The position numbers were made by a program, and so were the translations under genes. Positions 15,027 through 50,626 of a DNA stretch of 64,000 bases are shown here, piece by piece. Below the pieces are notes generated by a model. That model searched no databases and was not told the DNA's origin. It saw only the letters and a program-made list of their open reading frames with translations. This DNA is from Parcubacteria group bacterium (GTDB lineage Bacteria > Patescibacteriota > Minisyncoccia > Moranbacterales > UBA11712). How positions within the stretch are numbered: the stretch's first letter is position 1; every line of letters begins with the position of its first letter. Location of the stretch: assembly GCA_041659685.1 (NCBI GenBank), contig JBAZXV010000002.1:39527-103526 (forward strand). Direction: 5' to 3'.

Positions 15027-15132
15027 CACCTCCTTTCTAGGGAGATACGGTGATATAGTGATATTCGTATCACTACAAACCTATACGGTCGTTAATAGAT
15101 TCAAGGCATACAGGGCAACCGCAAAAATTTGC
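15027..15132 (+). repeat. R1 element copy a (conserved ends CACCTCCTTTCTAGGGAGATACGGTG ... GGCAACCGCAAAAATTTGC; internal hairpin TAGTGATA-TTCG-TATCACTA)
   Basis: Member of a five-copy family (38811-38946, 42133-42261, 44184-44350, partial 50606-50626). The hairpin sequences differ between copies but complementarity is maintained. Confidence 0.6.
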
Positions 15133-20799: not shown

Positions 20800-21057
20800 A
20801 TGGGAAAAGATTATAAGCTTGAAATATCGGAATCAATAAAACTTGACGACTGGTCAAGAAATTTAGGCAAGTCGGGAGAAAAAGTTAAAGGTAAGCCCAA
20901 AAGGGAAATTGAGCAATATGTCGGGAATAGAGATAAGAACGTCGTTTCGGAATTTGAAAGATTGAGAGAAAAAAACAAAAAAACGAAAGTGATTCATAGG
21001 TTATGGAGAAGATTTGGGAATATTTTCAAAAAAGTTCACGAACACGAAAAAGAATAA
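20800..21057 (+). CDS. Small basic hypothetical protein (85 aa) within the Type I R-M operon
   Basis: Start adjoins the hsdM stop. No motif. Confidence 0.3.
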   Translation: MGKDYKLEISESIKLDDWSRNLGKSGEKVKGKPKREIEQYVGNRDKNVVSEFERLREKNKKTKVIHRLWRRFGNIFKKVHEHEKE

Positions 21058-21066
21058 ATTAACAAT

Positions 21067-21564: not shown

Positions 21565-21750
21565 TGACAAATCAACCAAACGAGAAAAAAAGACCGACGG
21601 AAGAGCCTAAACCAGAGCCCTCCATCCCAGAAAGAGAAATTCCTGATTCTCCTCGCAGAGGGAGCGAACCACTCACGCCTGGAAGAGATGATAAAGGGCT
21701 GAATCCAAATGACATTTTTCCCGTTGAGGGAGGAGATAAAAAATAGATTT

Positions 21751-24053: not shown

Positions 24054-24073
24054 ATTTATTGAACGAATAAAAA

Positions 24074-24937: not shown

Positions 24938-24945
24938 ATATAACT

Positions 24946-25656: not shown

Positions 25657-25658
25657 AT

Positions 25659-26120
25659 ATGGAGCAACTGAAATTTATTCACAACACAATAATACATTGG
25701 ATAGACAAGACTGATAGCAAAGCGAATATAATACTCGCCTTGAAGCTTTTTATTTTGGGATATTTTTTGAAGGAGTTTCATATTCAAGATGTGGAGAAAT
25801 TTAAGCAATTTATTCTATTCATTTTTTTCTTTTCGTCTGCTCTATCATTCTTTTTTGTATTGAAAATAGTATATCCAAAGCTGTCTACGGGAGAGGCAAG
25901 TTCACTTCTTTATTTTAAGCATATTTCAGATAAATACAAATTTAATAAAAAGCAGGGAGCAGCTGACTACAAAAATCTAACCCCAGATAAATTAGAGCTA
26001 GATACTATAAATCAAATAATTTCGTTATCTATTGTCGCAACCGAAAAATATAGAGATTTACAAAAAAGCATTATCCTTTTATTTGTGGAAGTTATCTCGT
26101 TAACTATTCTATTTTTATGA
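25659..26120 (+). CDS. Small 3-TM membrane protein; candidate membrane-disrupting effector of the cyclase cassette
   Basis: 153 aa. Helices ANIILALKLFILGYFL, FILFIFFFSSALSFFFVLKIV and SIILLFVEVISLTILFL. Its start lies 3 nt after the stop of cyclase 2, and its stop lies 8 nt before the hsdR start. Confidence 0.45.
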   Translation: MEQLKFIHNTIIHWIDKTDSKANIILALKLFILGYFLKEFHIQDVEKFKQFILFIFFFSSALSFFFVLKIVYPKLSTGEASSLLYFKHISDKYKFNKKQGAADYKNLTPDKLELDTINQIISLSIVATEKYRDLQKSIILLFVEVISLTILFL

Positions 26121-26127
26121 AATAATT

Positions 26128-29049
26128 ATGCGTTTCAACGAACAGCACACAATCGAAAACCACATAATCAAATACTTCAAAAACGATTTGAAGTATGAAT
26201 ATGTAAAGCCTGATGAATTTGCCGAACTTCGCGAATTTGAAAATGAATACCTTATAACCCCGCTTTTTCAAGAATCAATCAAAAAACTCAACGGCATCGA
26301 GGACGACAATCTCGTTCAGCTTCTTGTGAAAGAACTCAAGAAAATCGACAACAATGAGGAATTTCTGAATGCCTTGCGAAACGGCATAAACCGCAAAGAC
26401 CCGAAGACAAACAAGAAAACCGACTACAAAGTCATCGATTTTGAAAAGCCTGAAAACAATCGTTTCATCATCACCAACCAATTCTATTTCGAGGGCAACA
26501 CCGAAAACATCCGCCCCGATATGATGATTTTCGTGAACGGCATTCCGATTGCGGACATCGAAGCGAAAAGCCCCACGGCTTCGGCGAGCGTGAGCTGGGA
26601 AAACGCCGTCGGGCAAATCAAGCGATACGAGAATGTCGCCCCGCGCCTTTTCATCCCTAACTGCTTCAATGTCGCGACTGACGGGACGGAGGCGGGCACG
26701 AGATATGGAGCGACAAATTCGCCGATTCAATACTTTTTTCAATGGAAAGACGAAGAGAACGCCAAGAAATTTGCGGGGAATCTGGAACTTGCGCTTTGGA
26801 ATCTTTTCGACAAAAGCCAGCTTCTCGACATCCTTAAGAATTTTATCGTCTTTGAAAAAGAGGAAGGAAAAACTATCAAGAAAATGTGCCGCTATCAGCA
26901 ATACCGCGCCGCCAACAGAATCCTTAAGAGAGTGGAGGATGGGAAAAAAAGAAAAGGGCTCATCTGGCACACGCAAGGGAGCGGAAAATCTTTGACAATG
27001 TTTTTCACGGCTTGGAAACTGCGCTATGCCGAGGGGCTCAAAAATCCCAAGGTTTTCATTTTAGTTGACCGCATTGACCTGGACGACCAGATTCACGACA
27101 CTTTCACAGCCTGCGGTGGGAAAAATATCATCAGAATCACTTCAAGAAAAAAACTTGAGGAAAAAATTACCAATGACGAACGGGGAATTTTCATCACAAC
27201 CATTCAGAAGTTCGCGGAGCTGGGAAGCGGCGTTCAAAACGAGAACAGCAATCTCATCGTGCTTGCCGACGAAGCCCATCGCACGAACGAGGGCATTTCG
27301 GGAATCAACGCCCGCTTTTCCTTTCGGGACGCTTTTTGGTTCGGCTTCACGGGAACGCCGATTGACAAGACGACTCTCAACACGCATCGCAATTTCGGAG
27401 AAGAGGGAGAGCGGTATTTGGACTACTATTCAATCCAGCAGGCGATTGACGACGGCGCGACGCTGCCCGTATATTTTGAAACAAGACTCTCGAAATATTT
27501 CATAAACGAAGAAGAATTAGACAAACAATTCGAGGAACTCACGGCGGGGCTTTCAGAAAAGCAAAAAGAAGAGCTCAAAAAAACGCACGGCAAAAAGGAA
27601 GCCATCGTGAAACTTGTGAAAAGAATCAGCGCTATCGCGACCGACATTGCCGAACACTACAAAATATATGTCCTGCCGAACAATTTCAAGGCGCAAGTGG
27701 TTTGCTACGACAAAGAGGCGTGTTTGATGTATAAAACGGCTCTCGACAAAATCATTCCTGAAAACTGGTCAAAAATTATCTATTCCACGGGCGACCCGAA
27801 TATTGAAGATTCTGAAATAAAGAAACACTACACCGCCAAAGACCAGCGCCGAAATATTATCGAGGCTTTCAAGGACAAAAACCAAGAGCCGAAAATCCTG
27901 ATTGTCTGCGATATGCTTCTCACGGGCTTTGACGCACCCATCGAGCAGGTGATGTATCTCGACAAGCCGCTTTTCGACCACAGCCTCTTGCAAGCTATCG
28001 CAAGGACGAATCGGGTATATCCAAATAAAGGCTGCGGGAAAATCATCGACTATTACGGCATTACGCGAAGTCTTGAAAAAGCCCTGGATTTTGACGAGAG
28101 CATTCTTGATTCGGCGTTGATTGACATTGCGCGGCTCAAAGAGCAGTTCAAGCAAAAACTCAAAGAATGCCTCGACTTGTTCGGCGGCATCAATATCGAA
28201 GACCCGTCCCTTGAGAACTTGCGGCGGGCTTTGCGGATTTTCGCCGACAACAAAGACAAGCAGAAACTTTTTGAAAATCTGTTCGCGAAAATCAAGCTGA
28301 TGTTTGAGATAATCTCGCCCGACCCGTTTTTGAAGCCGTATATCCGCCAAGTGGAATGGCTTACGAGTTTCAGCCTCGCGTATAATCGGGAGTTCAAAGC
28401 GCCGACCGAGGAAGAAATACGGATGGAAGAATATGGCGAGAAAATCAAGCAGCTTATTCAGGAAAAAGTGGATTTGCAAGGAATCATCAGAACTTTCAAA
28501 GAAATCAGCATCACGGATTTGTATCAGATGAAGCAACTTGAAAAAATGGAAGCCGAAGACAAGGCGCGGGCTCTTGAGAAAATGCTCAAGAGCGAAATAT
28601 CGATAAACATCGAAACCAACCCGACCTATCACAAATTCAGCGAGCGGCTGGTGAAAATCAAACGGGACTTCGAGGACAATCAGATTGATTTGGACAAAAA
28701 AATTCAAGAGCTTTGGAAATTGCGGGAGGATTTGGTGGACAAGCGGGATGAAGCCAAAAAACTGGGATATAATTTACAGGAATACGGCGTGTATGTGATT
28801 TCGCAAGAGTTTCTCGAAAACATTGAAACGAACAAAGAAATAAAGCCGTTCATTCAGGATATGGTGGAGGCTATCACCGAAACTCTCGACAAGGGCTGGC
28901 AGGAATCCTCAAAGCGGGAGGAGTTCGTGAAGGAAATTAAGCGCAAACTCACAAAACTTATTCTCAAAGATTACAAAGACAAAATTCAGGTTCGGGATTT
29001 TCCGAAATATATCAACAGGATAATAGATGTTGTTCAGCGAAAATTTTGA
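26128..29049 (+). CDS. hsdR: Type I restriction enzyme R subunit HsdR (SF2 DEAD/DEAH helicase-nuclease)
   Basis: N-terminal nuclease region (MMIFVNGIPIADIEAK is a PD-ExK-like motif). Walker A WHTQGSGKSLTMFF. DEAH LADEAHRTNEG. Motif VI-like QAIARTNRV. Confidence 0.9.
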   Translation: MRFNEQHTIENHIIKYFKNDLKYEYVKPDEFAELREFENEYLITPLFQESIKKLNGIEDDNLVQLLVKELKKIDNNEEFLNALRNGINRKDPKTNKKTDYKVIDFEKPENNRFIITNQFYFEGNTENIRPDMMIFVNGIPIADIEAKSPTASASVSWENAVGQIKRYENVAPRLFIPNCFNVATDGTEAGTRYGATNSPIQYFFQWKDEENAKKFAGNLELALWNLFDKSQLLDILKNFIVFEKEEGKTIKKMCRYQQYRAANRILKRVEDGKKRKGLIWHTQGSGKSLTMFFTAWKLRYAEGLKNPKVFILVDRIDLDDQIHDTFTACGGKNIIRITSRKKLEEKITNDERGIFITTIQKFAELGSGVQNENSNLIVLADEAHRTNEGISGINARFSFRDAFWFGFTGTPIDKTTLNTHRNFGEEGERYLDYYSIQQAIDDGATLPVYFETRLSKYFINEEELDKQFEELTAGLSEKQKEELKKTHGKKEAIVKLVKRISAIATDIAEHYKIYVLPNNFKAQVVCYDKEACLMYKTALDKIIPENWSKIIYSTGDPNIEDSEIKKHYTAKDQRRNIIEAFKDKNQEPKILIVCDMLLTGFDAPIEQVMYLDKPLFDHSLLQAIARTNRVYPNKGCGKIIDYYGITRSLEKALDFDESILDSALIDIARLKEQFKQKLKECLDLFGGINIEDPSLENLRRALRIFADNKDKQKLFENLFAKIKLMFEIISPDPFLKPYIRQVEWLTSFSLAYNREFKAPTEEEIRMEEYGEKIKQLIQEKVDLQGIIRTFKEISITDLYQMKQLEKMEAEDKARALEKMLKSEISINIETNPTYHKFSERLVKIKRDFEDNQIDLDKKIQELWKLREDLVDKRDEAKKLGYNLQEYGVYVISQEFLENIETNKEIKPFIQDMVEAITETLDKGWQESSKREEFVKEIKRKLTKLILKDYKDKIQVRDFPKYINRIIDVVQRKF

Positions 29050-37311: not shown

Positions 37312-38307
37312 ATGGATGAGAAGACAAAAAATCTAGTCGAAGAATTTCTGCTCAAATCCGAAGCGAAGGGAGAAATTTCTGACTCCACGGTCGTGAAGTA
37401 TCGAAGTCTCCTTCTTTACTTTTTCAAATTGATGGGCAAAAGCATTTTCAATTTGACGGCTGGAGACTTTGATAATTTCATAGTCCAGAAGAAGAATTAC
37501 GAAGAGAAGCCTGTCCTAGCTACAACGCTTCGAAACTACGCTTTCGCTCTTCGGAAATTCGTCGCTTATCTCAAAAAAAACGGCGTGGATTTGAAAATCG
37601 GTGCAAGCGATATTGAGATTCCCAAGGATAAGCGGAAGCGCAAGCCCGTTTATCTGACCGATGAAGAGGTGCTTCGTTTCCTTGCCGCTATTTCGGAAGA
37701 CGGGACTGAATTGCGTGTAGTTCGGTTCTATACTCTTGTTCAGCTCCTGCTTGATTCGGGGTCAAGAATCAGCGAAGCATTGTCCGTAAAGGTAAAAGAC
37801 ATTGACTGGGAGAAGCGGACGGTGGATATTGTCGGCAAGAATGACAAGGAGAGGACGCTTATGTTTGGAAGCGAAGCTGAACAATGGCTCAAACGATATT
37901 TGGCGAGGCGCAAGAGCGATAACGAGTATCTGTTCACTACGATAGACGGCAAGAGGCAATGGAAGAAGTTTGAGATTGATGACCTCTTTCGACGATACGC
38001 CAAGAAGGCTGGGATAACCAAGCAAACGACCGCCCACGCTATGCGCAGGACTTGTGCCACGCGGATGTTGCGCAGGGGTCTTAAAATCAACGATGTTTCA
38101 TATCTGCTGGGACACGCAGATTCGCAGACCACTCTAAAGTATTATATCGGCGTTCCCACTACAGACGAGTTGCGCGAGAAGATAACCGACGACTACTACA
38201 AGTTCGCTCCCGAATCGGAACTGAAAAGGCTCGGCTTTCAAAACAAGGCTGGTTTAGCTGGTGCGGGCGACGCTAATGATGATTTGCCCCATTGTCCCAA
38301 ATGGTAG
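37312..38307 (+). CDS. Tyrosine recombinase / integrase
   Basis: SRISEALSVKVKDI (box I) and HAMRRTCATRMLRRGLKINDVSYLLGHADSQTTLKYY (box II with catalytic Tyr). Confidence 0.8.
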   Translation: MDEKTKNLVEEFLLKSEAKGEISDSTVVKYRSLLLYFFKLMGKSIFNLTAGDFDNFIVQKKNYEEKPVLATTLRNYAFALRKFVAYLKKNGVDLKIGASDIEIPKDKRKRKPVYLTDEEVLRFLAAISEDGTELRVVRFYTLVQLLLDSGSRISEALSVKVKDIDWEKRTVDIVGKNDKERTLMFGSEAEQWLKRYLARRKSDNEYLFTTIDGKRQWKKFEIDDLFRRYAKKAGITKQTTAHAMRRTCATRMLRRGLKINDVSYLLGHADSQTTLKYYIGVPTTDELREKITDDYYKFAPESELKRLGFQNKAGLAGAGDANDDLPHCPKW

Positions 38308-38326: not shown

Positions 38327-38810
38327 ATGGTATAGCATCACTAAATAAATGAAATCAATCGAACGAAAATTTAAGGAGATTAAGGGAAAGAAGCCGTGGC
38401 TAAGTTCGCATAGTCATTTCGTCGAGGCGATAACGGGCAAGAGATTCAGCTCAAAGACAATGCGGATTTGGTTTTATAAACTTGTCGAAAAAGACGACTA
38501 CGACAAAAGCAACAAAAAAGAGGTGTTGGAATATCTGGAGTCGCGATTGAAACCTTTGAGGACGGAAAAAAACAGGGGGTAAAGGGGTCTAGGAGACGCG
38601 AAAAAAACGAAGACGGTGTATTTTGCATTCCAGGGAGATATGAAACGCTGGGCGCGAGAATAAAAAAATTGACAACTCGAAAATTTTTTGCTAGACTTCT
38701 TTTAGAAAGTGATGATATTTCCCAAAGATAATCAATTTTTTGCAATCGAGATTCGGTAAGTCGACTTGTCCACAATTCAAATTTTTGGCTTGTCCTAAGT
38801 CCGCCCCACT

Positions 38811-38946
38811 CACCTCCTTTCTAGGGAGATACGGTGAAAGAGTTGATGTTCAGCATCAACTTCTCAATCCTAAATGGTCGTTCGTTAGCCTTCGGGCTGA
38901 TGGATAAAATAGACTCAAAAGCATCAGGACAACCGCAAAAGTTTGC
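38811..38946 (+). repeat. R1 element copy b (hairpins AGTTGATG-TTCAG-CATCAACT, AGCC-TTCG-GGCT, CTGATG...CATCAG)
   Basis: Same conserved 5' (CACCTCCTTTCTAGGGAGATACGGTG) and 3' (GACAACCGCAAAAGTTTGC) ends as the other copies. Confidence 0.6.
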
Positions 38947-39074: not shown

Positions 39075-39971
39075 TTGAATTTCAACATTCTGGAGGAAAG
39101 AAAAATGAGTTCTTTGCAAAAATTTGTTTTGGGAATCCCGAATCCCGGCAGCAGCCTTTTTGATTCAACAGTTCAGCTGTTTAATAAAATTGGCGTGCAA
39201 GTTGCCTATAACGGGCGGGCCTTCGAGGGAGAGATTGAGGGCGTTGATATATTCGGTAAGGCATGTTTGATGCGCCCTCAGGATATTCCCAATGCTATCT
39301 CGAAAGGCACCCTCGATTGTGGCATCTGCGGGTGGGATTGTGTTGTGGAGAGCGGCTTAGAAAATAAGCTTGTGAAGATTTCTGAGCTGAATTACGGCAA
39401 GAAATTGACAAAACCTGTGAGGATTGTGGCTTTTTCAAGAAAATTCTCAACCCTTAAAGAAAATGAGAGTATTACCGTCACCACCGAATACCCCAACATT
39501 ACGAGGGCGGCTTTCAAAAACATTCCTCAGGAAAACATTGATTTTTCCTACGGGACTACGGAGGCAAAGGTTGCAGCAGGAATGTATGATTATGGGGTCT
39601 GCGTGACCGAAGGGGGGAAAAGCCTAATTGATAACAACCTGCAAATTGTTCGGGTGCTCTTGGTTTCACCGACCGTGTTCATGGCAAAACTCGAAGCACC
39701 GGAACTGGAAAGTTTCGGGAAGATGTTGGAAGGGGCATTGCTTGCGAAAAAATTACAACTCATCACAATGAATGCCGATGCAAGCGTGAAGGATGAGATA
39801 CTTTCGATTCTTCCCGCGCTAAAATCCCCAACGGTCAGCAGGTTGGAGGATGGGGGGTACAGCATTTCGACCGTAGTCGAAACTAAGGATGTGGCAAATC
39901 TCTTGCTCAAACTGAGACAGCTCGGAGCAGCGGGTATTATCGGAACTGATATCAACTTCGCTATCAAATGA
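39075..39971 (+). CDS. hisG: ATP phosphoribosyltransferase, long form (HisG)
   Basis: KFVLGIPNPGSSLFDSTVQLFNKIG and LMRPQDIPNAISKGTLDCGICGWDCVVESG match the HisG R..DIP..V..G..D.GI.G.D...E block. C-terminal regulatory domain present. Confidence 0.7.
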   Translation: MNFNILEERKMSSLQKFVLGIPNPGSSLFDSTVQLFNKIGVQVAYNGRAFEGEIEGVDIFGKACLMRPQDIPNAISKGTLDCGICGWDCVVESGLENKLVKISELNYGKKLTKPVRIVAFSRKFSTLKENESITVTTEYPNITRAAFKNIPQENIDFSYGTTEAKVAAGMYDYGVCVTEGGKSLIDNNLQIVRVLLVSPTVFMAKLEAPELESFGKMLEGALLAKKLQLITMNADASVKDEILSILPALKSPTVSRLEDGGYSISTVVETKDVANLLLKLRQLGAAGIIGTDINFAIK

Positions 39972-41157: not shown

Positions 41158-41357
41158 TCGCAAAAACTTGCGATACTTTAGATAGCTGAAATAGGGATAA
41201 AACCCTGTTTCAGCGTTATCACCCAGGAGATGATTCATTTCAAGGGAGATTTTTGGAGTCCGCTTCGCTTGACTTCAGATTCGCTTGTTGATAGCATTTA
41301 ATGAGGCTAAAAAGGGGGATTCAGTCCCTTACAAACTAAAAGAAAAGGGGGCATATT

Positions 41358-41837: not shown

Positions 41838-42132
41838 GGGGGGAGAATGGCAGCCTACACTGCGTGCATCAGTTATGGGCAGAGAAAAAGTCTGCTTTTT
41901 CCCTTGTGTGGTGCGAAGTCCTTCAGTGCTCGCTGTGCGACTGATGAAGAAGCCATTAGAACATTTCGAAGTATTGCCATCAAAGATTTCTTTTGCATGT
42001 TTCACAAAATCACGGTTGCAATACACCAGGGTCAGCGGTTTGTATTTGAAGGCTGCGTACAACCACTTTAACTTTCCAGGGCAACTGCCCAGCCAGGCTT
42101 TCACGAGTCTGGCTTTTTTCTTTCCAGATTTT

Positions 42133-42261
42133 TTTCTAGGGAGATACGGTTGAGAGCTCCGACTTATCGGAGTAAGAACCCATACAGTCGTTAGACTTCT
42201 TGGCAGCCCGCCTGCGCTCTTCTGAGCTACGGCGAGGCGAAGGACAACCGCAAAAGTTTGC
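42133..42261 (+). repeat. R1 element copy c (hairpin CTCCGA-CTTA-TCGGAG); left direct repeat of the Fic cassette
   Basis: About 111 bp near-identical to copy d at 44238-44350. Confidence 0.65.
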
Positions 42262-42296
42262 GGGTATTTTAATAGCAAGAGCACCTTCTTTACTGG

Positions 42297-42854
42297 GTGT
42301 TTTTCTGTTATTATTTCGATATGAACAAAATATATTTCATCAGTGGTGTTTGCGGCGTCGGGAAATCAACTATAATGCCTTATCTAAAATTATCGCTTCC
42401 TCAGAGTGAGTACAGGGTCTTCGATTTCGATGAAAGAGGCGTTCCTGAAAATGCCGACCGCAACTGGAGGATTTCTGAATCAAAACATTGGATTGAGGAA
42501 GGGAATAAATTGTTGCAAGAAAATATAAACACTGTTATTTGCGGCTTCATAAAACCTGATGACCTTCCGAATTCATCAGATGAAAAATCAGCTGAAATCA
42601 GACTGATTCTTTTGAATGCGGAACCAGAAATAATCCGCCAAAGACTTATAAAGCGATATACCAAAAACAATGTTTTTGACGAATCGCAAAAAGTAATCGG
42701 CAAACCAGTTAATGAGTTTATTGAGAGCAATGTTTATTTTTCCACGAATATGAGAGATATTTTCAAAGAACGAGGCTGTCTGATAGTGGATACTTCAAAT
42801 CTAACGCCCGAGGAAGTGGCAAGAGAAGTGGTAAATATTATCTTAAAAGACTGA
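42297..42854 (+). CDS. P-loop kinase-like ATPase (AAA_33/zeta-toxin-like fold), first gene of the Fic cassette
   Basis: Walker A ISGVCGVGKSTIMPYL. Confidence 0.5.
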   Translation: MFFCYYFDMNKIYFISGVCGVGKSTIMPYLKLSLPQSEYRVFDFDERGVPENADRNWRISESKHWIEEGNKLLQENINTVICGFIKPDDLPNSSDEKSAEIRLILLNAEPEIIRQRLIKRYTKNNVFDESQKVIGKPVNEFIESNVYFSTNMRDIFKERGCLIVDTSNLTPEEVAREVVNIILKD

Positions 42855-42888
42855 CTGCAAAAGTTTATAATAATCTTGCGCTTGCCGG

Positions 42889-42945
42889 TTTGTATACATC
42901 TGTTGACATAATGTATACAAACTACTATACTTTGTATACATTATT
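42889..42945 (+). promoter_or_regulatory. Three TTGTATACA palindromic repeats upstream of the fic start codon; candidate operator
   Basis: GTTTGTATACATCTGTTGACATAATGTATACAAACTACTATACTTTGTATACATTA. A TTGACA -35-like hexamer is embedded. Confidence 0.45.
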
Positions 42946-42964
42946 AATTGAATGTAAACAAACT

Positions 42965-44107
42965 ATGAAAAACATCAAAATTGGCTCGTATATAGCTCAA
43001 AAGGAAGGTTTTAAGGCTTTTACCCCCAATCCATTCCCTCCAAAGGGCGGCTTTGATTTTGAACCGAAAATTTCGAAAAAAAATGATGAAGCGACCCGAC
43101 TATTGGGAAAGCTGGATGGAATTACAAAACTGCTGCCTGATTCCGATTTCTTCCTTTTGATGTATCTGCGAAAAGATGCCGCATCTTCAAGTCAAATTGA
43201 AGGGACAAGGGCGTCTATGATAGACGCAATTGCCGCAGAAGCGGATATAGATACGAATATGCCAGAGGATGTAGACGACATATTGCATTACATCAAAGCT
43301 CTTAATTATGGAATGAAGCGGGTAACTGATGATAATTTTCCTATGACTTTGCGGTTTATTCGTGAGCTTCACAGACAGTTGATGCATAAAGCACGCTCAA
43401 CTCATTTTTCCGACCCTGGAGAATTTCGTAAAAGTCAAAATTGGATTGGCGGCACTCGTCCAGATAATGCTCGTTTTGTTCCGCCGTCTATCATTGATAT
43501 GCAAAAAGCTCTCGGTGATTTGGAAAAATTTATTCATACCGAGGATAATATCCCGACTGTGATCAAAGCAGGAATTATTCACGCCCAATTCGAGACTGTC
43601 CATCCTTTTTTGGATGGAAACGGCAGAACTGGCAGGATGCTAATTACTTTTTATCTTTGGAAAGAGGGATATCTGGAGAAGCCAGTGTTGTTTTTGTCTT
43701 CCTTTTTCAAAAAACACCAAAAACTTTATTACGAAAAACTTTTCGGCTACCACAACGGAAATATTTTCGAGTGGATAGATTTTTTTCTTGACGGTGTTAT
43801 TGAAATTGCCAATGAAGCCATAGATATCGTGGGAAAAATTACCATCCTGCGTCAAAAAGATATAATGAAAATCCAAAAATTGGGCAAGCGATCTTCTGAA
43901 AGCGGAGCCGTTGTTTTGCCGAAATTATACGGTCAGCCGATTGTGAATGCCAATGTTATCCAAAAGTGGACTGGATTTACTCGTGCTGGGGCGCAAACTG
44001 TAATCGACAGATTTATCAAAATGGGAATCCTGGTTCCTAAGGATAAAGACAAAAAATACGGACAGGCGTATATTTACAAGGAATATGTGGATATATTTAA
44101 CGAATAG
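42965..44107 (+). CDS. fic: Fic/Doc-family protein (AMPylation toxin family) with C-terminal winged-helix
   Basis: Canonical Fic motif VHPFLDGNGRTGR. The ORF track gives 42890 as the start. The ATG at 42965 (MKNIKIG) lies downstream of the operator repeats and is preferred. Confidence 0.8.
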   Translation: MKNIKIGSYIAQKEGFKAFTPNPFPPKGGFDFEPKISKKNDEATRLLGKLDGITKLLPDSDFFLLMYLRKDAASSSQIEGTRASMIDAIAAEADIDTNMPEDVDDILHYIKALNYGMKRVTDDNFPMTLRFIRELHRQLMHKARSTHFSDPGEFRKSQNWIGGTRPDNARFVPPSIIDMQKALGDLEKFIHTEDNIPTVIKAGIIHAQFETVHPFLDGNGRTGRMLITFYLWKEGYLEKPVLFLSSFFKKHQKLYYEKLFGYHNGNIFEWIDFFLDGVIEIANEAIDIVGKITILRQKDIMKIQKLGKRSSESGAVVLPKLYGQPIVNANVIQKWTGFTRAGAQTVIDRFIKMGILVPKDKDKKYGQAYIYKEYVDIFNE

Positions 44108-44183
44108 GAGGAGATTGAAAAATAAAATCAACACGACATCCTCGATCCTCCATGAATCACCTCCCTGCACAAGGCAGGTAAAC

Positions 44184-44350
44184 TTTCTGGGGAGATCTTT
44201 ATCCCGTAGTAAAGCATCAGCTTTTACTGCTGGGATAGTTGAGAGCTCCGATCTATCGGAGTAAGAACCCATACAGTCGTTAGACTTCTTGGCAGCCCGC
44301 CTGCGCTCTTCTGAGCTACGGCGAGGCGAAGGACAACCGCAAAAGTTTGC
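44184..44350 (+). repeat. R1 element copy d with an extra inserted hairpin (TATCCC...GGGATA); right direct repeat of the Fic cassette
   Basis: 3' 113 bp near-identical to copy c. 5' TTTCTGGGGAGAT conserved. Confidence 0.65.
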
Positions 44351-44508
44351 TATTTCAAAGAGCACCACATCAGGTGCTTTCTGTGTTATTTGCCAAGAAG
44401 CGACCGACCAGAGGGAGATATTTAGAGTCCGCTCCGCTTGACGATAATTTTATTTATTTACGCAAAAGTATATTCGGAGTAAAATATAGTGGTAAAAACC
44501 AAAATTAA

Positions 44509-46510: not shown

Positions 46511-49500
46511 ATGTTTATAGAAGTAAAATCCGAGGAGAGGAAAATAGGGCCGGAATCAGTTGAACAGATGGAAAGCGCGGAAACTATTGCCAAAGAGAAG
46601 ACGCCGGAAGAACAGCGGGCAGAGAATATTGAACTCATGACTCAAAGAGCCAGGCATTTTATTGCGGAAAAAAAAGCCGAAAAGGAGAAAAAAAATGCCC
46701 GCAGGGAACTGGAATCCGTTCCGCAGGATGTAGACCGGCCGGAAGGGCGGCAGAATGAAGAAGCGGAAGATGCACAAGAAAAACCGGGAGAGCAGAAGGG
46801 AATCATTTCAGGATTGAAAGATAAATACAGGCTATGGAAGCTGAAGCGGAGCGGATTTCCTGATCCCGGGAAAGCCTTGGGATTTTTTGAATATATAAGC
46901 AGCAGGGCAGATTCAACTTTAAAATTCGACAGCGACACCCTGAATCTGATAAGGGATACATTCAGAGCGACAAACGACCCGATTGCTTTTTATGAAAAAA
47001 TAAAGCAGCTGAACTTAAAGATCGCGCAGCCGATTATCAAACCCAATTACGGCTTAGGAACTTTGATGAGGGATCCGGATATATTTAAGAAGCTTGACCT
47101 TTGGCAGTCAGTCAATGAATCACTGGGATTTGGCGATGCAAATTCTTCGGGAGACGATCTCAGATATTTTTGCGGAGAAACCGAACTGCACGCCGGATTA
47201 TCCGCTGAAAATTTGAACCGGATCAGTCAATTGCGGAATTTATCGGGGTCGCTTTTTTCTGTGAGCGATCTGAACTGGCTGGCAAATTGCGTGGAGGACA
47301 GGCATACTTTTGAGTCGTTGGGAAAACTCTTGGGAAGTGAATATGCAAAAAACCTCAGAGACAAAAATATACTCAGAGTGGAAGACTTGGCAAAAAAACT
47401 GAAAGATCTCGACGCGAGCGGAATGACAGAGAGTCTGTTAATCGGAGCCGATATGAATTTGGATGTCGGGAGCGCCATAAGAGAGCTGACCTCCGAAGAT
47501 GAAGAAGAAAAAGCGGCGAGTGTCGAAAAAACAAAGGCATTGGAGCTGGAAGAACGAGCGAAAGACGAAAAATTCCGGGAGCTCGCCGGGGATCTCTCGC
47601 TCTTTTCCGGAAAGGATTTTGGAATAAATGAATACCAAAAATTGGAGAGCCTTTACCAATGGCACAAGGATTACGCGCTGGCTTTTGCGCAAGCTTTTGA
47701 GGATTTGGGTATCCTTAATCGATCCCAGGAAGGAACACTAAACCTTGAAGAATTCGAAGACACCCTGGGCCATTGGAAAAATGAGGCCGGATATGGCAGT
47801 CCGGAAGTTTTTTTCGCCCTTCTGGATCCTTCGTTCAATGAAATGATCTCAATTTTGAAAAGAGAGAAAGGCGACTTCAAGACAAGGGATATATTCAGAT
47901 ATGCTTTCCTGTATGCCCGAGAGCCGGAAGTCATTAAATCTTTGGAATCGGATGAAGGCAAAGAACTCCTGCAATTTTTTACGGAACGCGGAATGGATTT
48001 TCTGGGACACGCAGAATTTTTTAAGCATCCCGGAATTGCCAAAATGCTCAAAGGATATGATGAATTTTTTGATATTCAAAAAGGTTGGTCGCTAGACGGA
48101 TTTTTGGAGTTGTATAATCGAGGTGAGACGGCCAATGAATTATTAGATTACCTGAAAGAAAATAAATTCAAACCGGATGGAAAATTTGAGATCAATAAAA
48201 TCCCGCTTCTCGTTAAAATTCACAGCATCAAGGATTCCATCGATGCCGAATACTTCAGGAAATATCCCAATTTTTTTCTCAGCGAAAAGACTGTGGACTT
48301 TATAATAAGCGATCCAAGCAAAGCTCCCGACGTTTTTTCCTTGGCCGAAGACGGCTATCTTGAAGGGCAGAATTTCCAATCCATAAGGTGGTTTCTTCAA
48401 GACAACCTTGAAGACATTCTTGCTATTCCCCGTGAAAAAAGAGACACATATATGAAGCTTTACCGCCGATTGGACGGCTCTCCTTCTCAGGAGATACAAC
48501 GGCTGAAAAAAGAGCTTACCAGGGAACTGTTGAAACTGGATGAACCGGAAAGTGCATACCAGAGAATAGAAGAAATATTTATCACGAACAATTTGCCGCC
48601 GGTCGGAAAGATTTATAAAGTATTTGCGGTAATTCATTCTCCTGCCGCAATGCAAGAACTCCTGGAAAGCAACGACAGGCTTAGTCCGTGTCTCAGGGAG
48701 TCTTCGGTGAGAAAAAGATATACTACAATATACAGAGATCTTTTGAACATTCACATCAAGTCCGGGAACCGGATTCTGAGAGATTATCTGGAAGTCGCGA
48801 ATGAGGGACAGGGCATCTTCGACAAGATGGAAACAGAGGGCGAGGAAAGCCTGAATAATGAAGAGAGGAGAAAGGCGGAATTTGTCCTGAAAAAACTGAA
48901 AACGCTGTGGGAAAATTCATCGCGAGGGATGCGAATGGATCCAAACAATCTCAGCATAAACGACGGGCTTGGCAATTTTTATAATAATTTGAAGACATCA
49001 ATAGGTGCCAAGGAAGGGCAGACGGTCACGGCCCGAATTTCCCAAATGTTTTTAGCGCCTGCCGGATACCAAAGCATAGAGCACGTGTTGGCCGCAATGA
49101 ATGAAGCCAAAGGAAAGGCCGGCACGCGCGGTCTCGAAACGGCAGATCTCCTGCGAAAAGGAGAATTTAATATCAAGGCGGGAGATGTCATCAAAGGCAT
49201 GCCATCTGGCAGGATGGGAGCAATCTTGCAGGGCGGAGCGGTGGCAGGAGAATATTTAGGCAGTGAATCATCATCGGATTCCACTCCTTATGACTCCGAT
49301 GTTTTCAGGGTGTCTGATTTAGGGGGAAATGCGGATTTTTCGGAAAATATCAAAAAATATTTTGGTGAGGGATACGGAGATGTCAATATTATTGTAAGAG
49401 ACAGGGGCCAATTCGACGAAACTTCCAAAGGAAGCTCCAGGGGGTATGATCCTTCCAAGCTGGAACTGTTCAGAACCGGAGTGATTTCGAACGAACATTA

Positions 49501-50587
49501 CGGGATTCGGACCGGCTTTCCTTCAAGTGAGATAGACTTGATGGTTGTCAGCGAAAACACCAAACAAGATGAAAAAAGGATGTCAAAGCTCTTTTTTGAT
49601 ATCGCCGAAAACGGATTTTATATCCCCGTTGCTGATACTTCCGGGAAATTGATTTTTAGTCCGGAGCAATATGAAGAATACCGAAGAATATTCAGAGGCC
49701 TGGAAAGATTTGATGGAAACAAGTTTGAATATCTGAACACGAAAGAAGGCGATCAAAACTACGATGAGGTGGAGAGGATTCGAAGGGAATTCAAAGAGGA
49801 TAGGGACCGCGTTGCGGCTCTGTCTCAGAAAATTAGAGACATGATAACCGACGTGTTGCGACAGCACGAAGTCACGTTGCGGGATAATCTGGACAACAGC
49901 ATCTTAGGCGCCGAACTAATGGACATAGGGTCCACGGCGAGGCATACTAATGCGATCGGGGATTATGATTTTGACCTGACTTTGCGGCTGGATGACCGGG
50001 ACATGGACAAAATAGGTGATATTGTCCGGGACCTCCAGGCCGGATTGCAGGCTGAAAGTTATTCAGATTCTCACGGAGATGAAAAAGGTGGCTACCAATT
50101 GAGGGCTAAACAGGGCCGCTTGTCCGGAGAAAATCCGGCGGATATCGACATTGGCTTTGTCCGCAAGTCCGACCTCGTTTATTTCGGATCTCACGAAGCC
50201 GTGCAGGAGCGTTTGGATTGGATAAAAAATAATATTAGCGAAGAGGCTTATGAAAAAACGATTGCGAACGTTATTCTGGCAAAAAAAATTCTGAAAGAAG
50301 GCAAAGCTTATAAGCGCGTGGAAGACGGCGGGATGGGCGGCATCAGTGTTGAGAATTGGATATTGCTCAACAGCGGCAATCTTGTCGAAGCATTCAGAAC
50401 TTTTTTGGCTGCTGCGATCGATGAAAACGGAACCCAGGTTCCGTTGGATGAATTCAAGCAGAAATACAAGATCCTTAATCCGGGAATGAATCTCAAAAAG
50501 CTTTATCATGACAATTATACGATGAATTTGAAGGAAGGGGGATATAACGCAATGATAAAAACCATTGAAAATTATCTCAAAGGTTGA
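46511..50587 (+). CDS. Giant (1358 aa) acidic protein with C-terminal Pol-beta-superfamily nucleotidyltransferase domain; candidate secreted/effector NTase (AMPylase-like)
   Basis: N-terminal charged coiled coil. At about aa 1140, MDIGSTARHTNAIGDYDFDLTLRL is the hG[GS]-x9-13-DhD NTase motif. A downstream third acidic strand ADIDIGFVRK. About 47% GC. Confidence 0.6.
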   Translation: MFIEVKSEERKIGPESVEQMESAETIAKEKTPEEQRAENIELMTQRARHFIAEKKAEKEKKNARRELESVPQDVDRPEGRQNEEAEDAQEKPGEQKGIISGLKDKYRLWKLKRSGFPDPGKALGFFEYISSRADSTLKFDSDTLNLIRDTFRATNDPIAFYEKIKQLNLKIAQPIIKPNYGLGTLMRDPDIFKKLDLWQSVNESLGFGDANSSGDDLRYFCGETELHAGLSAENLNRISQLRNLSGSLFSVSDLNWLANCVEDRHTFESLGKLLGSEYAKNLRDKNILRVEDLAKKLKDLDASGMTESLLIGADMNLDVGSAIRELTSEDEEEKAASVEKTKALELEERAKDEKFRELAGDLSLFSGKDFGINEYQKLESLYQWHKDYALAFAQAFEDLGILNRSQEGTLNLEEFEDTLGHWKNEAGYGSPEVFFALLDPSFNEMISILKREKGDFKTRDIFRYAFLYAREPEVIKSLESDEGKELLQFFTERGMDFLGHAEFFKHPGIAKMLKGYDEFFDIQKGWSLDGFLELYNRGETANELLDYLKENKFKPDGKFEINKIPLLVKIHSIKDSIDAEYFRKYPNFFLSEKTVDFIISDPSKAPDVFSLAEDGYLEGQNFQSIRWFLQDNLEDILAIPREKRDTYMKLYRRLDGSPSQEIQRLKKELTRELLKLDEPESAYQRIEEIFITNNLPPVGKIYKVFAVIHSPAAMQELLESNDRLSPCLRESSVRKRYTTIYRDLLNIHIKSGNRILRDYLEVANEGQGIFDKMETEGEESLNNEERRKAEFVLKKLKTLWENSSRGMRMDPNNLSINDGLGNFYNNLKTSIGAKEGQTVTARISQMFLAPAGYQSIEHVLAAMNEAKGKAGTRGLETADLLRKGEFNIKAGDVIKGMPSGRMGAILQGGAVAGEYLGSESSSDSTPYDSDVFRVSDLGGNADFSENIKKYFGEGYGDVNIIVRDRGQFDETSKGSSRGYDPSKLELFRTGVISNEHYGIRTGFPSSEIDLMVVSENTKQDEKRMSKLFFDIAENGFYIPVADTSGKLIFSPEQYEEYRRIFRGLERFDGNKFEYLNTKEGDQNYDEVERIRREFKEDRDRVAALSQKIRDMITDVLRQHEVTLRDNLDNSILGAELMDIGSTARHTNAIGDYDFDLTLRLDDRDMDKIGDIVRDLQAGLQAESYSDSHGDEKGGYQLRAKQGRLSGENPADIDIGFVRKSDLVYFGSHEAVQERLDWIKNNISEEAYEKTIANVILAKKILKEGKAYKRVEDGGMGGISVENWILLNSGNLVEAFRTFLAAAIDENGTQVPLDEFKQKYKILNPGMNLKKLYHDNYTMNLKEGGYNAMIKTIENYLKG

Positions 50588-50605
50588 TGAATGGACTTAG
50601 CGGCA

Positions 50606-50626
50606 GGGACAACCGCAAAAGTCTGC
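50606..50626 (+). repeat. Partial R1 3'-end copy e (GGGACAACCGCAAAAGTCTGC) immediately after the giant-gene stop, followed by two hairpins
   Basis: Matches only the conserved 3' end of R1. Hairpins GCTATA/TATAGC and GACAGG/CCTGTC follow. Confidence 0.45.

What the first reader, a model, noticed from the sequence alone, without database searches (positions are those of the whole stretch)
42133..44350. Fic toxin cassette (P-loop kinase plus Fic) bracketed by 112-bp direct repeats with a triple TGTATACA operator
- Seen in sequence: near-identical R1 copies at 42150-42261 and 44238-44350 bound a two-gene unit, the kinase at 42297-42854 and the Fic gene at 42965-44107 with its HPFLDGNGRTGR motif.
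- The fic promoter contains three palindromic TTGTATACA boxes at roughly 22-25-bp spacing, overlapping a TTGACA hexamer. This is consistent with autorepression, possibly by the C-terminal winged helix of the Fic protein.
- The ORF track's upstream start at 42890 would translate through the operator and is probably wrong.
- Direct-repeat-flanked toxin cassettes suggest mobilisation by homologous or site-specific recombination at the R1 elements.
Basis: partly seen in the sequence, partly recalled or inferred. Interest (0 to 1): 0.55.

Follow-up and report, generated by a model that had tools for sequence, protein, structure and literature searches.

The report
Phage-defence Fic gene between rRNA-trailer copies
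The "cassette" is a self-regulated, horizontally travelling anti-phage Fic gene (SoFic type) beside an unrelated small kinase; the two repeats around them are stray copies of the structured RNA stretch that normally follows the 16S ribosomal RNA gene, and in related genomes such copies mark the ends of inserted mobile DNA.

Summary
The sequence features are real: a 113-nt direct repeat (98% identical), a P-loop ORF, a Fic gene and three TGTATACA palindromes.

The interpretation needs revision.
- **Fic gene.** It is a full-length SoFic-type, class II Fic protein, a known single-gene anti-phage system. Homologues with 80-94% amino-acid identity occur across several phyla. In every homologue locus fetched (three groups of contigs), the same promoter and TGTATACA boxes at 21-bp spacing precede the gene (the KSB1-like group keeps two exact boxes). 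Autorepression through its C-terminal winged helix is plausible and has a precedent in CccR.
- **Kinase.** It is not a partner: it is absent from every other Fic locus fetched (three groups of contigs), and its one homologue elsewhere has no Fic beside it.
- **R1.** It is not a private repeat. It belongs to a structured element family that starts exactly at the 16S rRNA 3' end in related Patescibacteria. Its 3' motif pairs with the 16S 5' leader, so it is the 3' strand of the pre-16S processing stem plus a terminator.
- **Orphan copies.** They form co-oriented arrays in mobilome regions, often next to tyrosine integrases. One relative has a 7.4-kb integrase-bearing island bounded by two copies.

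The local R1-kinase-Fic-R1 layout looks like a juxtaposition of two blocks, an R1-kinase block and a Fic-R1 block.

The parts
42091..42114 (+). Terminator-like hairpin plus T run that closes the preceding unit. It is conserved upstream of the homologous element in Moranbacteria (L003).
42133..42261 (+). R1-A, an orphan copy of the 16S rRNA 3'-trailer (3' ETS) element with the short 5' type. The block 42149-42261 is the 113-nt repeat.
   Evidence: nhmmer profile score 87; alignment A2; repeat
42277..42304 (+). Intrinsic-terminator-like hairpin that belongs to the R1 module. The kinase ATG follows 16 nt later, with no promoter match between.
   Evidence: the same hairpin type follows many family members
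42321..42854 (+). Small P-loop NTPase or kinase of 177 aa (AAA_18). Its function is unknown, and it is not a conserved neighbour of Fic.
   Evidence: Pfam 31.7 bits; weak PDB hit 4cvn; 83% aa homologue in L004 without Fic
42891..42940 (.). Operator: three TGTATACA palindromes at 42891, 42912 and 42933, spaced 21 bp. They are interleaved with the promoter TTGACA (42903-42908), 17 nt, TATACT (42926-42931).
   Evidence: conserved upstream of Fic in L031-L041
42965..44107 (+). SoFic-type class II Fic protein of 380 aa. It has Fic_N and Fic domains, the inhibitory motif S75SQIEG, the catalytic motif H213PFLDGNGRTGR, and a C-terminal winged helix.
   Evidence: Pfam; PADLOC SoFic E=2.3e-106; PDB and Foldseek hits to SoFic 3eqx/3zcn and to 7cb8; model secondary structure for residues 329-371
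44154..44164 (+). GAATCACCTCC, a remnant of the 16S 3' tail and island-side arm that precedes many non-16S copies. Here 19 unrelated nt follow it before R1-B starts.
44184..44350 (+). R1-B, an orphan 16S 3'-trailer element with the long 5' type (an extra stem). The block 44238-44350 is the 113-nt repeat.
44359..44380 (+). Terminator-like hairpin of the R1-B module.
44413..44438 (+). Companion motif 'block 2' (GGGAGAT-N5-GAGTCCGCTCCGCT, running into TTGAC). It follows R1 terminators in many loci, including 16S-adjacent ones. A second copy lies at 41244-41269.
38818..38946 (+). Another full family member, 510 nt downstream of a tyrosine integrase gene (37312-38307) and upstream of a HisG-like gene.
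15034..15132 (+). Another full family member, 75 nt upstream of a tyrosine integrase gene (15207-16295).
41158..41174 (+). A 3' fragment of the element (TCGCAAAAACTTGCGAT) directly after the stop codon of the second P-loop gene. A terminator and block 2 follow it.
50604..50626 (+). A 3' fragment of the element (GGGACAACCGCAAAAGTCTGC), 17 nt after the stop codon of the 1358-aa gene.

Best explanation
The interval is a junction inside a large defence and mobile-DNA region of a Parcubacteria/Moranbacteria-like bacterium. It is not a self-contained two-gene toxin cassette.

**1. The Fic gene.**
- It is a SoFic-type AMP-transferase, a known single-gene abortive-infection defence.
- It is kept in check by its own N-terminal inhibitory helix.
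- By inference, it also represses its own promoter. Its C-terminal winged helix would bind the three TGTATACA palindromes, which sit on one face of the DNA (21-bp phasing) and bracket the -35 and -10 hexamers.
- The promoter, operator and gene travel together between phyla as one unit.

**2. The kinase.** It is an unrelated neighbour.

**3. The R1 repeats.**
- They are orphan copies of the 3' external transcribed spacer of 16S rRNA.
- In relatives the element starts at the last bases of 16S. Its conserved 3' motif pairs with the 16S 5' leader to form the pre-rRNA processing stem, and a terminator follows.
- By inference, tyrosine-integrase islands in this lineage insert at this site and duplicate it.
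- Serial insertion and later recombination between copies would then leave co-oriented arrays of copies and 3' fragments between small blocks of accessory genes.

**4. The local order.**
- It is best read as an R1-kinase block joined to a Fic-R1 block.
- The 98% identity of the two copies would come from recent homologous exchange or gene conversion between neighbouring copies.

**Shown versus inferred.**
- Shown: family membership, the 16S adjacency, the leader complementarity, operator conservation and the lack of a kinase partnership.
- Inferred: DNA binding by Fic, integration at the element, and how the two copies became identical.
For: **Fic.**
- PADLOC SoFic profile, full length, E=2.3e-106.
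- Pfam Fic_N and Fic domains.
- Best solved relatives are SoFic and 7cb8.
- The inhibitory and catalytic motifs are invariant across 23 homologues.
- Homologues are 80-94% identical in CPR, KSB1, Omnitrophica, Actinobacteria and Sphingobacteriia records.

**Operator.**
- Same boxes, same 21-bp spacing and same hexamers in L031-L041 (the L039-L041 group keeps two exact boxes), with homology starting at box 1.
- The octamer is found only there in the window. Among the 47 fetched loci it occurs only in front of Fic or at the Fic-promoter remnant in L007.
- CccR is an experimental precedent.

**Kinase.** It is absent from all other Fic contexts and present without Fic in L004.

**R1.**
- 33 distinct full copies were aligned.
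- Rfam places the 16S 3' end where the element begins in L028, L018, L023 and L007.
- The leader sequence GCAAATTTTTGTGGTTGTCC, about 200 nt upstream of 16S in L026 and L028, is complementary to the R1 3' motif.
- The P2 hairpin has changes on both sides at 6 of 6 pairs.

**Islands.**
- L007 has 16S, an element, then peptidase, integrase, exonuclease, HTH-Fic and PIF1 genes, then a second element. The two elements share a 68-nt identical block.
- An integrase lies 385 nt after the 16S-adjacent element in L028.
- Window integrases sit next to the elements at 15034 and 38818.
- Arrays are seen in L003, L004, L014, L026 and L030.

**Block structure.**
- Fic-R1 is linked in L031/L042, where there is no R1 upstream of Fic.
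- R1-kinase is linked in L004.
- Antiporter homologues have no R1 upstream.
- A and B are 98% identical, against 77-88% among the other window copies.
Against: - No integrase lies between R1-A and R1-B.
- No empty site or circular junction was found, so the origin of the A/B identity is unresolved.
- The window holds no 16S gene. The integration-at-16S model therefore needs secondary sites or later rearrangement to explain the window copies.
- Integrases near the elements could be coincidental in a region that has four of them.
- No copy was found in viral contigs.
- Orphan copies keep intact hairpins and terminators, which could mean they are selected for a function of their own.
- The kinase starts right after the R1-A terminator with no recognisable promoter, in two genomes. 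That pattern would also fit a leader role for R1.
- Binding of Fic to the boxes is untested.
Confidence: 0.6

Rival explanations
1. Kinase plus Fic form a two-gene toxin-modulator cassette that moves as a unit by recombination between its private flanking repeats.
For: - A 113-nt direct repeat, 98% identical, bounds exactly these two genes.
- Both genes have slightly lower G+C than their surroundings.
- Fic proteins can be toxic, and a small partner (AS1) has been reported for E. coli Sofic.
Against: - None of the other Fic loci fetched (three groups of contigs, 84-94% identical proteins) has the kinase.
- The kinase homologue in L004 is followed by DUF5320 and DUF134 genes, not Fic.
- The inhibitory helix is in cis.
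- Fic carries its own promoter, so the two genes are not one operon.
- The repeats belong to a family with dozens of copies elsewhere.
Confidence: 0.08
2. The 2.1-kb unit is an integrase-less, cis-mobilisable element. R1-A and R1-B would be its attL and attR, made when a circular kinase-Fic molecule carrying one R1 copy integrated into a resident R1 copy, using an integrase supplied in trans.
For: - The identity block has sharp borders at both ends.
- L007 shows that an integrase-bearing island can sit between two such copies.
- Four integrase genes are present in the window.
Against: - R1-kinase and Fic-R1 occur as separate linked blocks in other genomes.
- In L007 the identity block is the 5' part of the element, whereas here it is the 3' part.
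- No excision products or empty sites were seen.
- R1-B has its own complete long-type 5' part, preceded by a truncated arm (44154-44164). That points to a more complex history.
Confidence: 0.15
3. R1 copies are functional RNA modules selected at each site, for example a leader or attenuator controlling the gene downstream, or a processing and termination insulator between transcription units. Their repetition would then have nothing to do with mobility.
For: - Structure is conserved with compensatory changes and optional hairpins at fixed positions.
- Every copy is co-oriented with the genes and followed by a terminator.
- The kinase ATG follows the terminator without a promoter in two genomes.
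- A promoter-like site at 38669-38697 lies upstream of the copy at 38818.
Against: - There is no Rfam match.
- Downstream genes are unrelated: HisG-like, kinase, antiporter, integrase and hypotheticals.
- The hairpin types of orphan copies match types found next to 16S genes in other genomes, as expected for copies of the trailer.
- The most conserved blocks are explained by pairing with the 16S leader, which orphan copies lack.
- 5'-truncated fragments are fused to gene ends.
- Copies are confined to the mobilome part of the window.
Confidence: 0.15
4. The array is an integron-like cassette array and R1 is an attC-type single-strand recombination site.
For: - Arrays are co-oriented, with one structured repeat per 1-3 genes.
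- Structure is conserved while the sequence in the hairpins varies.
Against: - No RYYYAAC ... GTTRRRY core pair in the attC order on either strand (reading of the sequence).
- The ends of the element do not form the single long imperfect hairpin of an attC.
- The genes carry their own promoters and terminators.
- The element is contiguous with 16S rRNA and pairs with its leader.
- The integrases were not tested for the IntI-specific insertion.
Confidence: 0.02
5. The repeat is an assembly artefact, a chimeric join at a repeated sequence.
For: - The window comes from a metagenome assembly.
- Other assemblies break at the repeat.
Against: - Independent contigs from two samples span R1-A to the kinase and Fic (L016/L047), and the kinase and Fic to the unique 5' part of R1-B (L001).
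- Only the R1-B to antiporter join lacks independent support.
Confidence: 0.03

Closest known systems
SoFic single-gene anti-phage system (Shewanella SO_4266 type, class II Fic; PADLOC SoFic; bioRxiv 10.1101/2022.05.11.491447; PMC12249575)
   Same: - Same domain order: Fic_N, Fic, then a C-terminal winged helix.
- Same cis inhibitory motif and same catalytic motif.
- Full-length profile match, and SoFic structures are the best matches to the predicted model.
- It lies in a defence island with type I and type III restriction-modification, AbiU2, PIN and PycTM genes.
   Different: - Only about 21-26% identity to the solved proteins.
- It is below NCBIfam's equivalog cut-off (116 bits against 550).
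- No conserved AS1-like small ORF was seen downstream.
- The host is a CPR bacterium.
- Defence activity is untested.
CccR of Yersinia pseudotuberculosis (Fic plus C-terminal HTH, autorepressor; PMC9755527)
   Same: - Same 380-aa architecture.
- N-terminal inhibitory helix.
- Palindromic sites at the -35 and -10 regions of its own promoter.
   Different: - The operator sequence and layout differ. CccR has two 10-nt inverted repeats separated by 26 nt. Here there are three 8-bp palindromes at 21-bp phasing.
- There is no T6SS context.
- Binding is not shown here.
Genomic islands that integrate into the 3' end of structural RNA genes (tRNA, tmRNA, ffs) and accumulate in tandem, including integrase-less derivatives bounded by att sites (CIME-type elements; named from my own knowledge)
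   Same: - Direct repeats duplicate part of an RNA gene region.
- An integrase lies near one end (L007, L028, window 15034).
- Copies and 3' fragments form tandem arrays between accessory genes.
   Different: - The target is the 16S rRNA 3' end and its trailer, not a tRNA-like gene. I found no report of this in the searchable literature.
- The duplicated segments are long (68-113 nt) and differ in which part of the element is duplicated.
- Integration itself is inferred, not shown.
Pre-16S rRNA processing stem (5' leader paired with 3' trailer, the RNase III substrate in model bacteria; established knowledge)
   Same: - The R1 family begins at the 16S 3' end.
- Its conserved blocks are complementary to the leader.
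   Different: - The window copies are orphan 3' strands with no 16S and no leader copy nearby.
- Multi-copy dispersal of a trailer is not a feature of the classical system.
Modular intergenic repeats such as BOX, ERIC and Correia elements (from my own knowledge)
   Same: - Modular and structured.
- Transcribed-strand bias.
- Many copies between genes.
   Different: - R1 has no terminal inverted repeats or target duplications.
- It is homologous to a functional rRNA flank.
- It is clustered in mobilome regions rather than dispersed.

Membership tests
SoFic-type class II Fic protein (defence system SoFic) | Catalytic Fic motif HxFx(D/E)GNGRxxR | tested here: met
   HPFLDGNGRTGR at residues 213-224, invariant in 23 homologues
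SoFic-type class II Fic protein (defence system SoFic) | Inhibitory helix motif (S/T)xxxE(G/N) located N-terminally in the same polypeptide | tested here: met
   S75-S-Q-I-E79-G80, invariant in the alignment; the same arrangement is described for CccR and SoFic
SoFic-type class II Fic protein (defence system SoFic) | Full-length match to family profiles (Fic_N, Fic, C-terminal domain) | tested here: met
   PADLOC PDLC03963 E=2.3e-106 over residues 15-379; Pfam Fic_N and Fic. The NCBIfam SoFic equivalog scores only 116 bits, below its 550-bit cut-off, so it is a family member and not an equivalog.
SoFic-type class II Fic protein (defence system SoFic) | C-terminal winged helix-turn-helix domain | tested here: met
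   Model: helices 329-336 and 340-352, then strands 356-358 and 369-371, with pLDDT about 60-81 for residues 321-380. Full-length Foldseek matches to SoFic 3zcn/3eqx. The phmmer alignment to 7cb8 reaches residue 374. Overall model confidence is modest (pLDDT 62).
SoFic-type class II Fic protein (defence system SoFic) | AMPylation activity and protection against phage | not testable with these tools
   Needs toxicity, AMPylation and plaque assays
CccR-like autoregulated Fic | Palindromic operator overlapping the -35/-10 region of its own promoter and conserved with the gene | tested here: met
   Three TGTATACA boxes at 21-bp spacing around TTGACA-17-TATACT, conserved in the three groups of homologue contigs fetched
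CccR-like autoregulated Fic | Binding of the C-terminal domain to the operator and repression | not testable with these tools
   Needs EMSA or footprinting and reporter assays
Class I Fic toxin-antitoxin module (FicT/FicA, VbhT/VbhA type) | A separate small antitoxin gene that supplies the inhibitory helix, co-transcribed and co-conserved with the toxin | tested here: not met
   The inhibitory motif is in cis. The upstream neighbour is a 177-aa P-loop protein absent from all other Fic loci. Fic has its own promoter.
16S rRNA 3' external transcribed spacer / processing-stem strand | Contiguous with the mature 16S 3' end | tested here: met
   Met for family members in L028, L018, L023 and L007, where the Rfam 16S end coincides with the element start within 2 nt. 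Not met for the four window copies, which are orphans; the window has no rRNA.
16S rRNA 3' external transcribed spacer / processing-stem strand | Complementarity to the 16S 5' leader | tested here: met
   The leader GCAAATTTTTGTGGTTGTCC at L028 2086-2105 and L026 8825-8844 pairs with GGACAACCGCAAAAGTTTGC (20 pairs, 2 of them G-U). AGTCTATT pairs with AATAGACT.
16S rRNA 3' external transcribed spacer / processing-stem strand | Cleavage by RNase III or other maturation nucleases | not testable with these tools
   Needs RNA end mapping or in vitro cleavage
Integrative island attachment site at a structural RNA gene | Island bounded by direct repeats that duplicate part of the target, with a tyrosine integrase inside | tested here: met
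   Met in L007: a 68-nt identical block at 54-121 and at the second copy near 7640, with integrase at 1450-2372 (frameshifted). Not met for the R1-A/R1-B unit, which has no integrase.
Integrative island attachment site at a structural RNA gene | Empty site in relatives, or excised circular form | tested here: inconclusive
   No empty site was retrievable.
Integron cassette array (attC sites) | RYYYAAC ... GTTRRRY cores in attC order, forming one imperfect hairpin | tested here: not met
   Reading of the sequence: the GTT-type core comes first and the AAC-type core last on both strands. The multi-hairpin architecture also differs.
Known riboswitch or cis-regulatory RNA (Rfam 15) | Match to a curated covariance model | tested here: not met
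   No hit on R1 at gathering score, or at E up to 10

The most novel reading that the evidence does not exclude
In this branch of the Patescibacteria, the 3' end of the 16S rRNA gene together with its structured trailer may be a dedicated landing site for tyrosine-integrase islands. Repeated insertion would build integron-like, co-oriented arrays of accessory and defence gene blocks, each closed by a copy of the pre-rRNA processing-stem strand and its terminator. The orphan copies keep 20 nt of complementarity to the 16S 5' leader and intact hairpins. They could also act as RNA, either by pairing with pre-16S in trans or by recruiting the same processing nucleases to island transcripts.
Probability: 0.3. 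Interest if true: 0.7.

Novelty: new variant of a known kind. Interest (0 to 1): 0.5.

Why it matters
**The Fic gene.** It is an ordinary member of a known defence family. This locus adds one testable detail: a compact promoter-operator that is conserved with the gene across phyla. That points to self-repression as part of what lets a toxic gene spread.

**The flanking repeats.** These are the more interesting part.
- They show that a piece of the ribosomal RNA precursor has been copied many times into variable regions of small CPR genomes.
- If the 16S 3' flank is a true integration hotspot, that would explain how these reduced genomes acquire and stack accessory genes.
- It would also give a simple sequence marker (the R1 profile) for finding island boundaries in metagenome bins.
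- It warns assemblers and binners about repeats that carry 16S-like tails.

Tried and rejected
**Ideas about R1 that were rejected.**
- Riboswitch readings (ykkC-like, PRPP, Na+/Li+). Rfam gave nothing on R1 at gathering score or at E up to 10, and the downstream genes are unrelated.
- tRNA or tmRNA genes as the repeat. There are none in the window.
- A minus-strand reading of CACCTCCTTTCT as a Shine-Dalgarno site. No start codon follows at a usable distance in the copies checked.
- attC or integron. The core order is wrong.
- Phage origin. Two scans of viral contigs with the 3' and 5' motifs found nothing.

**Searches that gave no usable result.**
- Exact-protein look-ups for an empty site or alternative neighbours returned only fragments of the same genome.
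- tblastn for a Fic remnant in L007, behind the promoter remnant, found none.
- The string CTGCAAAAGTTTAT after the kinase stop codon resembles the R1 3' end. It is absent from the L004 homologue and is treated as chance.
- Literature searches for integration at the 16S 3' end, and for integrons in Patescibacteria, returned nothing relevant.

**Not pursued.**
- An alternative helix (CGGTTG with CAACCG) closing the element showed mismatches rather than covariation. RNAalifold preferred UGGUCGUU with GACAACCG, which is conserved but barely covaries.
- The AlphaFold model from a shallow alignment reached only pLDDT 62.


Full report
**1. Observation**

The reported features are present.
- The repeat finder gives one 113-nt direct repeat, 42149-42261 and 44238-44350, 98% identical. 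The two mismatches lie in a hairpin loop.
- Between the copies lie a P-loop ORF and a 380-aa Fic ORF at 42965-44107.
- The P-loop ORF most likely starts at the ATG at 42321. The GTG at 42297 overlaps the U tract of a terminator hairpin.
- Three TGTATACA octamers lie at 42891, 42912 and 42933, exactly 21 bp apart. They are interleaved with TTGACA (42903-42908), 17 nt, TATACT (42926-42931).
- The octamer occurs nowhere else in the 64-kb window; 0.26 occurrences are expected.
- Contigs from two other assemblies cover R1-A, the kinase and Fic, and the kinase, Fic and the 5' part of R1-B. The layout is therefore not an assembly chimera, except that the R1-B to antiporter join has no independent support.

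**2. The Fic gene**

- Pfam finds Fic_N and Fic domains.
- The PADLOC SoFic profile matches over the whole length, E=2.3e-106.
- The NCBIfam SoFic model matches below its equivalog cut-off.
- The best solved relatives are a Mycobacterium Fic protein (7cb8) and Shewanella SoFic. SoFic structures are also the best Foldseek matches to a modest-confidence model. The C-terminal end of that model shows two helices followed by a beta hairpin, the winged-helix pattern.
- The catalytic motif H213PFLDGNGRTGR and the cis inhibitory motif S75-x3-E79-G80 are invariant in 23 homologues. This is a class II Fic protein that carries its own inhibitory helix.
- SoFic is a published single-gene anti-phage system (10.1101/2022.05.11.491447; PMC12249575).
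- The surrounding 8.5-38 kb holds type III and type I restriction-modification systems, an AbiU2 HEPN protein, a PIN protein, a Pycsar-type effector and four tyrosine integrases. It is a defence and mobilome island.

**3. Mobility and operator of the Fic gene**

- The 120 best database homologues are 79-100% identical. They come from Parcubacteria, Moranbacteria, Magasanikbacteria, Komeilibacteria, KSB1, Omnitrophica, Actinobacteria and Sphingobacteriia records. This points to horizontal transfer.
- Contigs were fetched for three of these homologues. One is a close relative (L031-33). One is a second CPR group (L034-38). One carries a protein that a source names KSB1 (L039-41). The neighbours of Fic differ completely among the three.
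- In all of them the same promoter and the same boxes at the same 21-bp spacing precede the gene, and homology begins at box 1. In the KSB1-like group box 1 is degenerate.
- Across all 47 fetched loci the octamer occurs only in front of Fic, or at a Fic-promoter remnant in L007.
- The travelling unit is therefore operator, promoter and Fic together.
- CccR is a 380-aa Fic protein with the same architecture. It has been shown to repress its own promoter through palindromes at -35 and -10, using its C-terminal HTH (PMC9755527).
- Autorepression here is a well-founded inference. It has not been shown.
- The start at 42890 proposed by the ORF track is wrong. Homologues are 380-382 aa, and the -10 hexamer lies downstream of 42890.

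**4. The kinase is not a partner**

- The 177-aa protein only reaches generic P-loop families: AAA_18 at 31.7 bits, and a weak PDB hit to a Fap7-like adenylate kinase. It has no PADLOC hit.
- It is absent from every other Fic locus.
- Its only homologue among the fetched loci (83% aa, in Moranbacteria GW2011_GWC2_40_12) also follows an R1 element. That homologue is followed by DUF5320 and DUF134 genes, not Fic.

**5. What R1 is**

*A family, not a private repeat*
- The conserved 3' motif GGACAACCGCAAAAGTTTGC occurs four times in the window.
- Scans of genome and metagenome collections found it mainly on Patescibacteria/Moranbacteria-type contigs, often several times per contig. About seven hits on unrelated contigs look like chance matches.
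- An nhmmer profile finds full copies in the window at 15034-15132, 38818-38946, 42133-42261 and 44184-44350, and dozens in the fetched loci.

*Architecture*
- The 33 distinct full copies share one plan:
  - TTTCTAGGGAGATA, with an optional stem;
  - CGGTGAAG or CGGTTGAG, then hairpin P2;
  - AACCCATATGGTCGTT, with an optional hairpin;
  - AATAGAC, with an optional hairpin;
  - CAGGACAACCGCAAAAGTTTGC, then an intrinsic terminator.
- Often a second motif follows, GGGAGAT-N5-GAGTCCGCTCCGCT.
- P2 has changes on both sides at all six pairs. In total 93.6% of cells are paired, against 82% in shuffles and 32-66% when the partner is slid.
- Rfam has no family for it.

*Link to 16S rRNA*
- In L028, L018, L023 and L007, Rfam places the 3' end of 16S rRNA within two bases of the element's first base. 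TTTCT is the end of the 16S anti-Shine-Dalgarno tail.
- In the two loci that include the 16S 5' flank, the leader reads GCAAATTTTTGTGGTTGTCC about 200 nt upstream of 16S. This is complementary to the R1 3' motif (20 pairs, two of them G-U). The leader also has AGTCTATT opposite AATAGACT.
- R1 is therefore the 3' strand of the pre-16S processing stem, together with its terminator.
- The window has no rRNA gene and no leader-sense copy. Its copies are orphans.

**6. Orphan copies and mobile DNA**

- In L007 the 16S-adjacent copy and a second copy 7.4 kb away share a 68-nt identical block, ATCACCTCC ... CCTATACG.
- Between them lie a trypsin-like peptidase, a frameshifted tyrosine integrase, an RNase T-type exonuclease, an HTH-Fic protein, a PIF1 helicase and a remnant of the SoFic promoter. 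This is the anatomy of an integrated island.
- In L028 an integrase 81% identical to that of L007 lies 385 nt after the 16S-adjacent copy.
- In the window, an integrase gene starts 75 nt after the copy at 15034, and another ends 510 nt before the copy at 38818.
- Many non-16S copies are preceded by a shared arm, TCCCACGRATCACCTCC, that differs from the 16S sequence upstream of GATCACC. This suggests a common island-borne source.
- In Moranbacteria contigs, and directly downstream of 16S genes, the copies form co-oriented arrays with one copy per one to three genes. Among those genes a HEPN/nucleotidyltransferase pair, an HTH-Fic protein and a sigma factor were recognised by reading the sequences, not by Pfam.
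- 5'-truncated fragments are fused to gene ends: window 41158 and 50604, L024, and L003 at 6101.
- Hairpin types of orphan copies match types found next to 16S genes in other genomes, and one genome can hold several types. That fits copies imported with mobile DNA.
- Integration at this site is an inference. No excision product, empty site or phage copy was found.

**7. The local arrangement**

- In the close relative L031/L042 (Fic 94%, antiporter 90% identical), Fic is followed about 60 nt later by the arm and an R1 copy.
- That relative has no R1 and no kinase upstream of Fic. About 6.8 kb of DpnI-type restriction-modification and other genes separate Fic-R1 from the antiporter.
- Antiporter homologues in three genomes have no R1 upstream.
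- The window's order therefore joins an R1-kinase block (as in L004) to a Fic-R1 block (as in L031).
- At 44154-44164 the arm GAATCACCTCC is cut off. After 19 unrelated nt, a complete long-type element begins, which marks a further junction.
- R1-A and R1-B are 98% identical over 113 nt, against 77-88% for the other window pairs. Their 5' parts and downstream spacers differ.
- I attribute this to recent homologous exchange or gene conversion between neighbouring copies. En-bloc integration of a kinase-Fic circle remains possible (rival, 0.15).

**8. Verdict**

- The Fic gene is a new member of a known defence family, with a conserved self-operator.
- The kinase is a bystander.
- The repeats are orphan copies of the 16S 3' trailer. 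They mark junctions in an accreted mobilome region.
- The idea that the 16S 3' flank is an island landing site in this lineage is the most novel reading. I give it a probability of about 0.3.

Noticed in passing
window 16667-16797: A LOOT RNA (Rfam RF03000, 58 bits) sits between an integrase and gp3-like terminase ORF (15207-16596) and a second integrase (16891-17814). This is an RNA of unknown function in a clearly mobile context.
   Followed up: no
window 8569-38307: A large defence and mobilome island. It holds four tyrosine integrases (8569, 15207, 16891, 37312), type III restriction-modification (9626-14236), AbiU2 HEPN (14257-14886), type I restriction-modification (19314-29049) with embedded PIN (22986-24053) and PycTM-like (25659-26120) genes, and YgjP.
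   Followed up: partly
window 42206-42238 and 44295-44327; L026 8876-8908: The G+C-rich hairpin inside R1-A and R1-B (GCCCGCCTGCGCTCTTCTGAGCTACGGCGAGGC) is 31/33 identical to a hairpin on the opposite (5' leader) strand of the 16S processing stem in L026. Hairpin modules seem to be exchanged between the leader and trailer sides.
   Followed up: partly
window 41244-41269 and 44413-44438; many loci: A second conserved motif, GGGAGAT-N5-GAGTCCGCTYCGCT(TGAC), lies roughly 60-110 nt after the R1 3' end, also next to 16S genes. It may be a promoter-proximal element, or the start of another RNA.
   Followed up: partly
window 42321-42854; L004 6452-6985: The small kinase gives a weak hit to a Fap7-like adenylate kinase (PDB 4cvn, E=3e-4; Pfam AAA_18). 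From my own knowledge, Fap7 helps mature the 3' end of small-subunit rRNA in archaea and eukaryotes. In two genomes this gene sits directly after a 16S-trailer copy. This may be coincidence.
   Followed up: no
window 44085-44264: A 59-aa ORF overlaps the Fic stop codon and runs into R1-B (50 aa from the internal TTG). A 47-aa antitoxin, AS1, was reported downstream of E. coli Sofic (PMC12249575). The ORF is interrupted in the 94% identical relative L031, so it is probably not real. Gene callers also placed a 46-aa ORF at the same spot in L034-L038.
   Followed up: partly
L007 5772-5834: A remnant of the SoFic promoter, with two TGTATACA boxes and the first codons of Fic, survives inside the integrase-bearing island without any Fic gene behind it (tblastn negative).
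   Followed up: yes
window 39075-39971 and 46511-50587: A stand-alone HisG-like ATP phosphoribosyltransferase and a 1358-aa protein with no Pfam or NCBIfam match lie in the same R1-punctuated region. A lone HisG is odd for a CPR bacterium with little biosynthesis.
   Followed up: no
L026 11265-12168; L022 1490-2463: In two relatives the Rfam 16S match stops about 0.9 kb before the true 3' end. In L026 an ORF with a LAGLIDADG-like motif (11485-12075) lies between. This looks like an insertion near the 16S 3' end, read from the sequence and not tested.
   Followed up: no
L002 590-625: A non-16S copy that keeps about 30 nt of 16S 3' sequence (GCGGAAGCTGTGGATGGATCACCTCCTTTCT), preceded by unrelated A+T-rich DNA. 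The length of 16S tail carried by orphan copies ranges from none to about 30 nt.
   Followed up: no
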